Source of the DNA: Escherichia coli
GTDB taxonomy: Bacteria > Pseudomonadota > Gammaproteobacteria > Enterobacterales > Enterobacteriaceae
NCBI RefSeq assembly: GCF_017348835.2
Contig: NZ_CP071375.1
DNA length: 64,000 nucleotides
Strand: one strand, 5' to 3'
Positions 51,501-54,500 of the stretch are shown here, piece after piece (within the stretch, counting starts at the first letter, position 1; the number at the start of each line of letters is the position of its first letter). A program made the position numbers.

Positions 51501-54500
51501 TTACGGTGTATTACCTCCGCTTTGTAAAGACCATTGATGCTCTCAGCCATCGCGTTGTCATACGAGTCGCCAGTACTCCCTGTTGATGCCAGTAATCCGG
51601 CTTCCTTAAGCCGCTGCGTGTAGGCCAGCGATACATACTGAGAACCTTTATCACTGTGATGGATTGTGCCGGACGGCCGACGGGCCCACAACGCCTGCTC
51701 CAGTGCATCCAGCACGAATGTTGTTTCCATGGATGATGAGACCTGCCATCCCACGATGTATCCGGCGAACACATCAATGATGAACGCCACATAAACGAAG
51801 CCCTGCCATGTGCTTACCCAGGTAAAATCAGCCACCCACAACTGGTCTGGACGTTCTGCCACGAACTGACGGTTTACGCGGTCGCATGCGGCAACGGCTT
51901 TCCGGCTGACGGTAGTGCGGACCTTTTTACCCCGGAGAACACCGGCAAGTCCCATAACTGCCATGAGACGTGCCACAGTGCATCTGGCCACTCTGATACC
52001 TTCCCGTAACAACTGACGCCAGACTTTACGCACACCGTATACCTGGTGATTTTCATCGTATACGCGCTGTATCTCTTTCTTCAGCCAGTCATCGTGCTGC
52101 GCACGGGCACTGCGTTTATCCGGATGATGTCGCTGTTGCTGACAATGGTAATACGTTGACGGGGCAATATGCAGTTCGCTGCATACCGGTCCGACCCCGT
52201 ACTGCTCACGCAGCTTATCCAGCAGTGGCATCATTTTTTCCAGAGGCGGTCGAACTCCGCCTTCGCAAAATAAGCGGAAGCCTGGCGAAGGATATCGTTA
52301 CTGCGGCGCAGTTCACGATTTTCACGTTCCAGCTCTTTCAGACGCTGACGTTCAGCGGTGGTGAGTCCACCATCACCACTCCCGGTATCCCGCTCATGCT
52401 GGCGAACCCAGACACGCAGAGTCTCCGGCGTACAGCCAATCTTTGGGGCAATGGAACAAATTGCCGCCCACTGTGAGTCATATTCATCCTGACTTTCCAG
52501 AACCATACGAATCGCCCGCTGACGGACTTCGGGGGAAAAACGAGTATTTTTAGTCATCCTGTTTACCTCTTTCTCAGGGAGTTTAGTCTCCAGGATTTCC
52601 GGGGCGGTTCACTTCGAAGTATTCTTCGTAAGCCTTTTCCATGATTGTGTCGAAATCCATATCACTCACCTGAGTTTCTTTCCAGCCAGCGACGGGCACC
52701 ATTTTCGGTTTTAAACGTTTTGCTTTTGGTATACGTCATCGCGGTGAATGTACCGTCCTGGTTGGGAAACACGCCGTACACCAGAGATTCGTTGTTGCCA
52801 AGATCGATAGTATCCATGTTGACCTCATTTCCCCTTAACGCCGGGTAGCGGAACAAAAACCTGCTGCATAGTTATTAAAGTTGAACCCTGCCGTCATGTT
52901 CATACGCCTCGGGCTGGCTACTTACCCCCTGACCACTGCTTGGTAACTCGAAGTATTGCCCGGCGTTCTGTGGGGCGGGGTGGGTGGTTGGTGTATGTAA
53001 TCTACAATTAAAAACTGTTTTGTGTCAACAGTTTTTAATTGTTGTTTTGGGCAAAAAAATCCCTCGAAAGAGGGAGTATGAAAATTGTTCAACTCAGATA
53101 GAGAAGGGAAATTGTCGCCGAGAATGTGTCACGCTTACAATCTCAATGCTTGAAGCAGCTACTCTGTACAGGATTATGTAGTTAGGGTGGGTCACGATCT
53201 CTCTCAATCCAGAAACCCGTTCGCTTGGTGGATATAAGTACGGATGCTCAGATAGAGGTAATACCGATGTTTCAATGCGTATTTTTAGTCTACGTGCTGC
53301 CGGTGGGTTCTCCTTGGCGATGTAAGTTATGATCTGGCGCAAATCATCGCGAGCAGACGGTAGCCATAAAATGGGTAACATTACTCGCTCTTGTTAGTTA
53401 CAGCAATTTGAGCAATAAGATTTTCCATTTCAGCCATTACCTCGTCATGTGGAATTGCGGGGCGAGTGTCTGCAAGGCTTGACGTTACTTTAGTGCGCAA
53501 CCATTCGTTGTAACTGTTTTCTTGTTCGGTAGTTTCGAATTCTGAAACTATCGGAGAAAGGGCTGTACCCATGGCATAACTCCTCTTCTTGTACTGTGGT
53601 CACGCCCGGCGGCTTTTTTGTGCCGCCAGCCACCTAGCAATGGTTTCTTCCATTGATTTTTTCTTGTCTTTGATTTCTTGAAGCATTTTTTCTTGGTCTT
53701 CCTCAGGAAACGCACTAAAAGCTTGGAGCAGTTCGCGTTGGCGAGGACCAATTTTCATCGTGTCAGGGGTGAAAATTGGCTCACACTCTTCAGGAGGCAA
53801 TAAAAACCAATGCAATGGATGCCCTGAAACCTCAACCAGTTTATCCAAACTTGAGGCTTTAGGTGTAGCCTTACCGCTGACCCATTGTTGAACAGTTTGT
53901 TGTGTCACACCAATTCTACGGGCAAGCTCAGCCTGGCTCCATCCAGTTTCCTGAAGAAGCTTGCTGATTCTGTACATAGATACTTCTAGGGCGCTCATCA
54001 TTATTCAATTTTACAGGTAAATACTGTTAAAAGCATCACAATAAAAAACTGTTGATTGCATACAGTTTTTTATTGTAGTCTTTGCTTATAGTTTTTAGAG
54101 GAGGGCAAAATGCTAGATAGCACTCGCGAAAAAATTAGGCAGAAATACACTCAGGCTGAAATAGGTCGTTATATGGGGGTCGCTCAACAGACTGTTTGGC
54201 AATGGTTTAGCTTTGGCGTTCCCCCAAAGCAGGTAATTCCGTTATGCCAACTAATGAAGTGGGAAGTTACCCCGCATGAAATCCGCCCAGATATTTATCC
54301 TAACCCAACCGACGGTTTACCTGTTGGATGTAAGGTTAACACATCAAATGCGCCGGAGTTGATTCATGAAAATCAAGCATGAACACATCCGCATGGCGAT
54401 GAATGCCTGGGCGCATCCGGACGGCGAAAAAGTACCGGCTGCGAAAATTACCAAAGCGTATTTCGAGCTGGGAATGACGTTCCCGGAACTGTATGACGAC

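What the first reader, a model, noticed from the sequence alone, without database searches (positions are those of the whole stretch)
53006..54001. ParE/RelE-type toxin-antitoxin pair in the rexAB-equivalent slot of the prophage immunity region
Downstream of the repressor (53600-54001, minus) lie a 63-aa antitoxin and a 95-aa ParE/RelE-fold toxin overlapping by 1 nt, followed by a terminator and a 14-bp perfect palindrome that shares its core with the repressor/cro operator. This is the position lambda uses for rexAB (between cI and OL), a known defence hotspot. The pair is probably co-transcribed with the repressor and therefore expressed in the lysogen, so it could act as an abortive-infection or addiction module rather than a generic TA pair.
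Basis: partly seen in the sequence, partly recalled or inferred. Interest (0 to 1): 0.7.

Follow-up and report, generated by a model that had tools for sequence, protein, structure and literature searches.

The report
Known PaaR1-PaaA1-ParE1 prophage toxin-antitoxin operon
The repressor, 63-aa antitoxin and 95-aa toxin are real, but they are the already published paaR1-paaA1-parE1 three-gene toxin-antitoxin system of the E. coli O157 prophage Sp4/CP-933M, so this is a correct rediscovery rather than something new.

Summary
The 95-aa ORF is a ParE-family toxin (Pfam E=3e-17) and is 67% identical to ParE2, whose structure is solved. The 63-aa ORF is a PaaA2-family antitoxin (Pfam E=7e-19). The two genes overlap by 1 nt (TAATG). 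A hairpin plus T7 terminator follows, then a 39-bp palindrome that recurs only in the repressor/cro intergenic region (2 sites found, 0.03 expected by chance).

Toxin, antitoxin, YdaS and YdaT are 100% identical to Sakai ECs_1067, 1068, 1070 and 1071 in prophage Sp4 (= CP-933M). The repressor differs from ECs_1069 by one residue. This locus is therefore the paaR1-paaA1-parE1 paralogue of paaR2-paaA2-parE2.

- Hallez 2010, as cited by later papers, described two paralogous systems whose antitoxins do not cross-neutralise.
- Jurenas 2021 (mBio) showed for the paralogue that PaaR2 is a CI analogue, YdaS and YdaT are Cro and CII analogues, PL/OL lies just beyond parE2, and the module is addictive.
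- A 2023 paper states that paaA2-parE2 "replaces rexA and rexB".

An abortive-infection role has not been tested. No PADLOC defence model matches either protein.

Verdict: already known, low interest.

The parts
53094..53381 (-). parE1: 95-aa ParE-family toxin
   Evidence: Pfam ParE_toxin E=3.2e-17 over residues 4-91. PDB 5CW7/5CZE ParE2 E=3e-36, 67% identity over 92 aa. 100% identical to Sakai ECs_1067 in prophage Sp4. PHROG 2455.
53381..53572 (-). paaA1: 63-aa PaaA-family antitoxin with no DNA-binding domain detected; its stop overlaps the parE1 start by 1 nt (TAATG)
   Evidence: Pfam PaaA2 PF21217 E=7e-19. NCBIfam NF050103 at 92 bits, cutoff 50. PDB 3ZBE PaaA2 E=1.4e-20, about 70% identity over 56 aa. 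100% identical to ECs_1068. AAGAGGAG Shine-Dalgarno 7 nt upstream of the ATG (sequence).
53600..54001 (-). paaR1: 133-aa CI-analogue repressor, with an N-terminal XRE/434-type HTH and a C-terminal domain shared with PaaR2
   Evidence: 434 repressor N-terminal domain E=3e-5. DicA-like subfamily hit over residues 11-130, below cutoff. One residue different (P75Q) from ECs_1069, annotated 'phage repressor protein'. PaaR2 aligns at 42% identity over PaaR1 residues 37-133, while the first ~36 residues carrying the helix-turn-helix do not align. A third repressor type matches only the last ~52 residues.
53053..53075 (-). Intrinsic terminator of the paaR1-paaA1-parE1 operon (6-bp GC-rich stem, UUUC loop, U7)
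   Evidence: Terminator scan. Centroid fold shows the hairpin. Hairpins of different sequence followed by a T-run occupy the same position in the Nord58 and FDAARGOS_401 alleles.
53004..53042 (.). OL-like operator: 39-bp palindrome with 16-nt perfect arms
   Evidence: The core occurs only here and at OR in the window, expected 0.03. It is replaced by GTTTAGT-type or TGCTATT-type motifs in loci with other repressor HTH domains, matching their own OR in each case.
52999..53028 (-). PL-like leftward promoter TTGACA-18-TAGATT, with its -35 in the centre of the OL palindrome
   Evidence: Promoter scan, 10 of 12 matches. Sequence homology to the CP-933P locus resumes immediately after the -10. PL933P was shown experimentally at the equivalent place in CP-933P (PMC8630535).
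54038..54076 (.). OR-like operator: 39-bp palindrome (15-nt arms) in the 108-bp paaR1/ydaS intergenic region. It carries a PR-like -35 TTGATT, and the -10 TAGTCT follows directly at 54076-54081, the same geometry as PL
   Evidence: 83% complementary to the OL/PL segment over 41 nt (I1).
54110..54382 (+). ydaS-like gene (Cro analogue), 90 aa
   Evidence: PHROG 35 transcriptional repressor E=9e-29. 100% identical to ECs_1070. No detectable similarity to CP-933P YdaS, i.e. immunity-specific. Role by analogy to PMC8630535.
54366..54791 (+). ydaT (CII analogue), 141 aa
   Evidence: PHROG 163 CII-like activator E=4e-46. 86% identical to CP-933P YdaT. 100% identical to ECs_1071.
54359..54376 (.). Perfect YdaT operator TTGATTCATGAAAATCAA (OM/PRE-like) across the ydaS end and ydaT start
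   Evidence: The only zero-mismatch match to TTGATTN6AATCAA in the window. The motif and its position are as published for CP-933P (PMC9986795).
52662..52817 (-). DUF1391 gene, first gene of the PL-like leftward operon
   Evidence: PGAP annotation in PE164 and 493/89. PHROG 751. 84% identical to its CP-933P counterpart.
51302..52611 (-). IS3-family (IS629/IS1203-like) insertion in ydfB that truncates the PL operon; not part of the TA system but bounds it
   Evidence: ALIL pseudoknot RF01497 at 52160-52276.

Best explanation
This is paaR1-paaA1-parE1, the three-component type II toxin-antitoxin operon carried in the immunity region of the lambdoid (Rac/Qin-like) prophage Sp4/CP-933M. Here it sits in a near-identical, IS-riddled prophage next to yccA in a pig E. 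coli strain matching PE164.

Proposed mechanism:
1. PaaR1 is the CI-analogue repressor. It binds the 39-bp palindromes at OR and OL and represses the PR-like (ydaS-ydaT) and PL-like promoters (inferred).
2. paaR1, paaA1 and parE1 are transcribed leftward as one operon from a PRM-like promoter, and also from a YdaT-activated PRE-like promoter, ending at the hairpin-T7 terminator just before OL/PL. This is inferred from gene spacing and shown experimentally only for the paralogue.
3. PaaA1 is a small, labile antitoxin with no DNA-binding domain. It wraps and neutralises ParE1, which is probably a gyrase/topoisomerase-directed, nucleoid-associated toxin like ParE2 (inferred from 67% identity).
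4. Because the antitoxin is unstable, any cell that loses or replaces this segment is poisoned. The pair therefore acts as an addiction module that stabilises the immunity region and the prophage. This is shown for RAE2 on plasmids and inferred here.
For: Identity of the proteins: Pfam ParE_toxin and PaaA2 hits; PDB ParE2 and PaaA2 hits.

Identity of the locus: 100% identity of toxin, antitoxin, YdaS and YdaT, and one substitution in the repressor, to ECs_1067-1071 inside the annotated 'prophage Sp4' of Sakai. Sp4 = CP-933M (PMC2884950). [quoted passage not shown] Synteny: same gene order as the RAE2 locus, ydaT-ydaS | paaR-paaA-parE-DUF1391...dicB-exo-int.

Operon structure: a 27-nt gap with a Shine-Dalgarno sequence, the TAATG overlap, and no minus-strand promoter or terminator predicted inside.

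Operators: the core occurs twice against 0.03 expected. The motifs co-vary with the repressor HTH in three immunity types.

YdaT operator: a perfect site is present (PMC9986795).

Experiments on the paralogue: PaaR2 and YdaS footprints, PL933P repression, bistability, and mini-F stabilisation by post-segregational killing dependent on ClpAP/ClpXP (PMC8630535).

Origin: two-gene paaA-parE modules sit in plasmid-stability contexts on Pseudomonas plasmids, consistent with a TA cassette captured by the prophage.
Against: - No experiment on RAE1 itself could be read here; Hallez 2010 is not in the library.
- PaaR1's DNA-binding domain and its operators are unrelated to those of PaaR2, so regulation is extrapolated by analogy.
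- Sigma-70 predictions for PRM and PR in the intergenic region are weak.
- The true start codon of paaR1 (M1, M2 or M9) and any leaderless translation are unresolved.
- The target of ParE2 is itself unproven.
- In single cells no ParE2 activity was detected in either transcriptional state, so the natural trigger is unknown.
Confidence: 0.88

Rival explanations
1. Defence reading: PaaA1-ParE1 is expressed with the repressor in the lysogen and works like lambda RexAB as an abortive-infection or superinfection-exclusion system. An infecting phage shuts off host transcription or degrades PaaA1, which frees ParE1 and kills the infected cell.
For: The pair occupies the cI-to-OL slot used by rexAB (stated explicitly in PMC9986795). 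The antitoxin is labile to ClpAP/ClpXP and the operon is transcribed in both switch states (PMC8630535). It is established general knowledge that many type II TA systems have proved to be anti-phage.
Against: No PADLOC defence model matches the toxin or the antitoxin. No paper found tests or reports such a phenotype. The authors who studied the paralogue favour addiction and anti-recombination. There is no sequence relation to RexA/RexB.
Confidence: 0.12
2. Passenger reading: the pair is a purely selfish or functionally silent hitch-hiker in a decaying prophage, kept only by its own addictiveness. It gives no benefit to phage or host and has no regulatory coupling that matters.
For: The prophage here carries three IS insertions. 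No ParE2 activity was detected under steady state. Only 1 of 50,697 sequenced phage records carries the toxin.
Against: The cassette is kept intact in the same slot behind at least three different repressor types, with 65-88% toxin identity between alleles. RAE1-like alleles are present in 587 of 5,426 complete E. coli genomes. One sequenced phage, Evi, carries an intact RAE2.
Confidence: 0.2
3. RelE reading: the toxin is a ribosome-dependent mRNA interferase rather than a ParE-type topoisomerase poison.
For: NCBIfam RelE_StbE subfamily hit at 28.4 bits, just above the cutoff of 27.9. RefSeq labels it 'RelE/ParE family toxin' and labels the antitoxin 'RelB family'.
Against: The best solved relative by far is ParE2 (E=3e-36, 67% identity). 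The only other PDB hit is a 'plasmid stabilization system' chain (6X0A); no chain named RelE appears in the hit list. ParE2 is reported to co-localise with the nucleoid and induce SOS.
Confidence: 0.07

Closest known systems
paaR1-paaA1-parE1 of E. coli O157:H7 prophage CP-933M / Sp4 (Hallez et al. 2010, as cited in PMC8630535 and PMC4803016)
   Same: It is the same locus. Toxin, antitoxin, YdaS and YdaT are 100% identical to Sakai ECs_1067, 1068, 1070 and 1071, and the repressor differs by one residue. The prophage type is the same and so is the integration site next to yccA.
   Different: The host strain is a pig isolate matching PE164 rather than O157:H7. The repressor carries P75 where Sakai has Q. 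An IS3-family element is inserted about 0.4 kb downstream of PL in ydfB.
paaR2-paaA2-parE2 (RAE2) in the immunity region of CP-933P / Sp12 (Jurenas et al. 2021, PMC8630535; structures 3ZBE, 5CW7)
   Same: Same three-gene order, and the same slot between the repressor gene and PL/OL. The same neighbours: ydaS and ydaT on one side, DUF1391...dicB-exo-int on the other. ParE is 67% identical, PaaA about 70%, YdaT 86%. The PaaR C-terminal half is similar and the YdaT operator motif is identical.
   Different: The repressor N-terminal HTH, YdaS and all operators are unrelated, so the two are heteroimmune. RAE2 has GTTTAGT-type repeats; this locus has one 39-bp ACAATnAAAAACTGT...ACAGTTTTTnATTGT palindrome at each of OR and OL. 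The antitoxins are reported not to cross-neutralise. RAE1 has a stronger terminator.
Lambda cI-rexA-rexB immunity operon
   Same: Accessory genes are co-transcribed with the repressor from PRM/PRE, lie between the repressor gene and OL/PL, and are expressed in the lysogen (position tested here; expression from PMC8630535).
   Different: There is no sequence or fold relation to RexA/RexB. No phage-exclusion phenotype is known. The mechanism is toxin sequestration by a labile antitoxin rather than a sensor plus ion channel (the last point is from established knowledge of RexAB).
Canonical ParD-ParE (RK2, Vibrio cholerae parDE2) type II TA
   Same: ParE-fold toxin (PF05016), and a small upstream antitoxin gene whose end overlaps the toxin gene's start.
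   Different: The antitoxin is PaaA-type, with no ribbon-helix-helix DNA-binding domain. Transcriptional control is delegated to a separate repressor that is also the prophage's CI analogue.
Two-gene paaA-parE modules on Pseudomonas and Acinetobacter plasmids
   Same: The antitoxin is 73% identical over 52 aa, with an adjacent ParE toxin gene sharing one base at the junction (TGATG).
   Different: There is no paaR gene. The module sits beside resolvase and ParA partition genes, a classical plasmid-stability context.

Membership tests
PaaR-PaaA-ParE three-component type II TA | ParE-family toxin closely related to ParE1/ParE2 | tested here: met
   PF05016 E=3e-17. 67% identical to ParE2 of 5CW7. 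100% identical to ECs_1067.
PaaR-PaaA-ParE three-component type II TA | PaaA-type antitoxin (PF21217) without a DNA-binding domain, encoded directly upstream of the toxin | tested here: met
   PF21217 E=7e-19 is the only significant domain. 63 aa. TAATG overlap with the toxin gene. 100% identical to ECs_1068.
PaaR-PaaA-ParE three-component type II TA | A third gene, paaR, encoding an HTH regulator immediately upstream in the same orientation | tested here: met
   133-aa HTH protein 27 nt upstream. Aligns with PaaR2 at 42% identity over residues 37-133, with the similarity concentrated in the C-terminal part.
PaaR-PaaA-ParE three-component type II TA | Location in O157 prophage CP-933M/Sp4 (for the '1' paralogue) | tested here: met
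   The genes lie inside the annotated prophage Sp4 of Sakai. Sp4/CP-933M equivalence. A homologue in CP-933M is stated.
PaaR-PaaA-ParE three-component type II TA | Toxicity of ParE and specific neutralisation by the cognate PaaA | not testable with these tools
   Reported for both paralogues by Hallez 2010, as summarised in PMC4803016. The primary paper is not in the library.
PaaR-PaaA-ParE three-component type II TA | The three genes are transcribed as one operon repressed by PaaR | not testable with these tools
   Consistent with the spacing, and with no internal minus-strand promoter or terminator. Shown experimentally only for RAE2.
Lambdoid immunity region (CI / Cro / CII with OR and OL) | Divergent repressor and cro-like genes around an operator-bearing intergenic region, with a second copy of the operator at a leftward promoter beyond the repressor operon | tested here: met
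   Palindromes at 54038-54076 and 53004-53042 only. PL-like promoter scoring 10 of 12. Operator motifs co-vary with the repressor HTH across three immunity types.
Lambdoid immunity region (CI / Cro / CII with OR and OL) | RecA-dependent autocleavage (S24 peptidase) domain in the repressor | tested here: not met
   No peptidase family appears among the NCBIfam, PHROG or PDB hits; only the HTH plus a short C-terminal domain. The same is reported for PaaR2.
RexAB-type abortive infection / known anti-phage defence system | Homology to a catalogued defence protein | tested here: not met
   No PADLOC family at E<=0.01 for the toxin or the antitoxin.
RexAB-type abortive infection / known anti-phage defence system | Exclusion of superinfecting phages by the lysogen | not testable with these tools
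   No report found.
Canonical ParDE | ParD antitoxin with a ribbon-helix-helix DNA-binding domain that autoregulates the operon | tested here: not met
   The antitoxin matches only PaaA2. There is no ParD/RHH hit.
RelBE mRNA interferase | RelE-type ribosome-dependent RNase toxin | tested here: inconclusive
   TIGR02385 at 28.4 bits against a cutoff of 27.9. The nearest solved structures are ParE2 chains and no chain named RelE was hit. Catalytic residues were not analysed.

The most novel reading that the evidence does not exclude
The most novel reading not excluded is that PaaA1-ParE1, made constitutively with the prophage repressor, is a true RexAB-like anti-phage or anti-recombination guard. 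It would fire when an incoming (heteroimmune) phage shuts off host transcription or swaps out the immunity region. Its recurrence behind at least three unrelated repressor DNA-binding domains would then reflect selection for that defence role, not mere hitch-hiking.
Probability: 0.12. Interest if true: 0.5.

Novelty: already known. Interest (0 to 1): 0.15.

Why it matters
The result mainly matters as a negative: this locus needs no follow-up as a discovery. It was named in 2010, and its rexAB-slot, CI/Cro/CII-embedded regulation was worked out for the paralogue in 2021-2023.

Two points remain open:
- Nobody appears to have tested the paaA-parE cassettes for phage exclusion.
- PaaR1's operators, which are quite different from PaaR2's, have not been mapped. 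The two 39-bp palindromes defined here are a precise, testable prediction for them.

Tried and rejected
- PADLOC scan of all six local proteins. The toxin and antitoxin had no hit; the repressor matched only generic HTH models.
- Hallez 2010 could not be read, so RAE1-specific experimental claims rest on later papers that cite it.
- Literature searches by Sakai locus tags found nothing.
- A sigma-70 scan of the 108-bp intergenic region gave no convincing PRM or PR. I therefore do not claim leaderless translation of paaR1, although a TAAAAT hexamer ends 6 nt before the annotated ATG.
- Rfam found no RNA family inside 52,600-54,500. The hits (DicF, sok, ALIL) lie elsewhere in the prophage.
- ARAGORN found no tRNA in 40,000-64,000, so I did not define the att site.
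- The NCBIfam label 'RelB family antitoxin' and the RefSeq label 'toxin YdaT family protein' were treated as naming conventions, not functions. The literature shows YdaT is a CII-like regulator.
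Full report
**1. Observation**

The ORF table shows three co-oriented minus-strand ORFs: 53600-54001 (133 aa), 53381-53572 (63 aa) and 53094-53381 (95 aa). The raw sequence shows the TAATG junction, so the antitoxin stop and the toxin start share base 53381. It also shows an AAGAGGAG ribosome-binding site in the 27-nt gap between the repressor and the 63-aa ORF.

Eighteen nucleotides past the toxin stop lies a minus-strand hairpin, TCCCTC-TTTC-GAGGGA, followed by seven T.

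A closely related 39-bp palindrome lies at 54038-54076, in the 108-bp region between the repressor and the divergent cro-like gene. The two are 78% identical over 45 nt. The shared core AAAAACTGT-N9-ACAGTTTTT occurs at exactly these two places in the 64-kb window even when three mismatches are allowed, against 0.03 expected by chance.

A near-consensus leftward promoter (TTGACA-18-TAGATT) has its -35 in the centre of the 53004-53042 palindrome.

**2. What the proteins are**

- The 95-aa protein matches Pfam ParE_toxin end to end (E=3e-17). It hits the crystallised ParE2 of E. coli O157 (5CW7/5CZE) at E=3e-36, with 67% identity.
- The 63-aa protein matches Pfam PaaA2 (E=7e-19). It hits PaaA2 (3ZBE) at E=1.4e-20.
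- The 133-aa protein has a 434-repressor-like HTH and a DicA-like overall architecture.
- On the other strand are a Cro-like protein (PHROG 35) and a YdaT/CII-like activator (PHROG 163).

**3. Which locus it is**

The window is essentially identical to the chromosome of the pig isolate E. coli PE164. Positions 1-41,095 match at 100% and the rest at 99.95%. Positions 1 to about 45.4 kb are core chromosome (ompF to yccA). A lambdoid prophage follows: int, xis, exo, dicB, and so on.

The same prophage is the annotated 'prophage Sp4' of O157:H7 Sakai. There the three genes are ECs_1067 ('plasmid stabilization system protein'), ECs_1068 and ECs_1069 ('phage repressor protein'). Toxin, antitoxin, YdaS and YdaT are 100% identical, and the repressor differs at one residue.

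Sp4 is the Sakai counterpart of CP-933M (PMC2884950). The literature states that a homologue of paaR2-paaA2-parE2 lies on CP-933M (PMC8630535). [quoted passage not shown] The window therefore contains paaR1-paaA1-parE1. I could not read the primary 2010 paper.

**4. What is already published about the arrangement**

For the paralogue in CP-933P, Jurenas et al. 2021 showed the following:
- The three genes form an operon in the immunity region.
- PaaR2 is a functional analogue of CI, translated from a leaderless mRNA.
- YdaS and YdaT are Cro and CII analogues.
- PaaR2 and YdaS footprint the intergenic region.
- A PL/OL analogue lies just beyond parE2 and is repressed by both proteins.
- The region is bistable.
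- No ParE2 activity is detected in either state.
- The locus stabilises an unstable mini-F plasmid by post-segregational killing.

The authors propose that the module is an addiction system that limits rearrangement of the immunity region.

**5. What I could add for this paralogue**

Comparing the window with a CP-933P-type locus (L004) shows a classic heteroimmune mosaic.
- YdaT is 86% identical, and paaA, parE and DUF1391 lie in a segment of 71% DNA identity.
- The repressor's N-terminal HTH, YdaS and the intergenic region are unrelated. PaaR1 and PaaR2 align only from PaaR1 residue 37 onward, at 42% identity.
- Beyond the toxin gene the two loci are unrelated through the operator/promoter segment. 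They become homologous again immediately after the PL -10.

Two further alleles were found.
- One (Nord58) has PaaR1-type immunity with a TA pair only 85% identical in DNA.
- The other (FDAARGOS_401) has a third, 166-aa repressor whose HTH is unrelated to both. It shares only the last ~50 residues with PaaR1 and PaaR2 (65% and 55% identity over 52 and 44 aa) and is again followed by paaA-parE.

In all three immunity types the longest word shared between the OR region and the post-parE region is found within the same type (10-12 nt). Across types only A-rich words of 7-10 nt are shared. The Nord58 allele keeps both palindrome arms while its OR spacer differs. This co-variation is good in-silico evidence that 53004-53042 and 54038-54076 are the PaaR1 (and probably YdaS) operators.

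A hairpin plus T-run of different sequence occupies the terminator position in the diverged alleles, which supports a real terminator. A perfect YdaT operator sits at 54359-54376. It is the only zero-mismatch site in the window and lies at the published relative position.

**6. Distribution**

- The PaaR1-type immunity segment is in 508 of 5,426 complete E. coli genomes, and RAE1-like paaA-parE is in 587.
- Only one of 50,697 phage records carries the toxin. Escherichia phage Evi has an intact RAE2 with ParE2 100% identical, unannotated in that record.
- PaaA homologues are common on Pseudomonas and Acinetobacter plasmids as two-gene paaA-parE modules beside resolvase and ParA genes. This fits the published suggestion that a plasmid-type TA cassette inserted into the immunity region.

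**7. Mechanism and its status**

- Shown here: gene identities, spacing, the terminator-like hairpin, the operator pair and its co-variation, and the YdaT site.
- Taken from the literature on the paralogue: operon transcription, CI/Cro/CII-like regulation, antitoxin lability, SOS induction and nucleoid localisation of the toxin, and addiction.
- Inferred for this locus: PaaR1 binds the two palindromes, the operon runs from a PRM-like start near 54001 to the terminator at 53053-53075, ParE1 poisons a topoisomerase, and loss of the segment kills the cell.
- Unresolved: sigma-70 predictions in the intergenic region are weak, so promoter positions and leaderless translation for paaR1 are left open.

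**8. The defence hypothesis**

No PADLOC model matches the toxin or antitoxin, and no paper I found tests phage exclusion. The position, the lysogen expression and the labile antitoxin keep the hypothesis alive, but the evidence available favours addiction. I give it about 0.12.

**9. Verdict**

The finding is real, correctly interpreted and already known. Interest is low.

Noticed in passing
window 51302-52611 and 60033-61342: Two copies of an IS3-family element (IS629/IS1203-like, each with an ALIL frameshifting pseudoknot, RF01497). The first is inserted in ydfB about 0.4 kb downstream of the PL-like promoter, cutting the early-left operon off from dicB, DicF and the rest.
   Followed up: partly
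window ~61489-62914: An IS481-family transposase insertion (~61650-62745) lies between the sok antisense RNA (RF01794, 61489-61655 +) and the hokD coding sequence (62759-62914). The prophage's hok/sok type I TA locus therefore looks split.
   Followed up: partly
window 54359-54376: A perfect TTGATTCATGAAAATCAA inverted repeat spans the ydaS stop and ydaT start. It matches the published YdaT (CII-analogue) operator of CP-933P and is the only zero-mismatch site in the window.
   Followed up: yes
window 53600-53740 (C-terminal part of the repressor); loci L004, L010, L011: Three heteroimmune repressors (133, 123 and 166 aa) have different N-terminal HTH domains. The 166-aa type shares only the last ~50 residues with the other two. 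The consensus there is roughly LLQxFxAFPxE...ARW(L/I)AAQKxRRA, and this part may be the oligomerisation domain. The DNA homology between the window and L004 begins at 53665, inside paaR.
   Followed up: partly
window 52818-52990 (leader between the PL-like promoter and DUF1391): A leader of about 170 nt, beginning ...CCACCCCGCCCCACAGAACGC..., is conserved across all four immunity variants even though the adjacent operator/promoter is not. Its function is unknown; it could be a regulatory 5' UTR or a nut-like site.
   Followed up: no
window 50058-50109 (-): DicF antisense sRNA gene (RF00039, 77 bits) upstream of dicB in the prophage early-left region.
   Followed up: no
L007 (Escherichia phage Evi LR597642) 5001-5279: The only phage record among 50,697 with this toxin family. 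parE2 is 100% identical to the O157 protein but is not annotated in the record. paaR2 and paaA2 are annotated only as a putative regulator and a hypothetical protein.
   Followed up: yes
L008 (Pseudomonas amygdali plasmid pPAL8-02) 2303-2491: Upstream of the two-gene plasmid paaA-parE module there are tandem GCGTACA(T/C)AT-like repeats. These could be that module's own operator, since it has no paaR gene.
   Followed up: no
plasmids collection hit H22, NZ_CP124741.1: A 286,775-bp record labelled as an E. coli O157:H7 EDL933 plasmid carries PaaA1 at 100% identity. That is much larger than I would expect for a plasmid of this strain, and PaaA1 is otherwise a chromosomal prophage gene, so this may be chromosomal sequence filed as a plasmid.
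   Followed up: no
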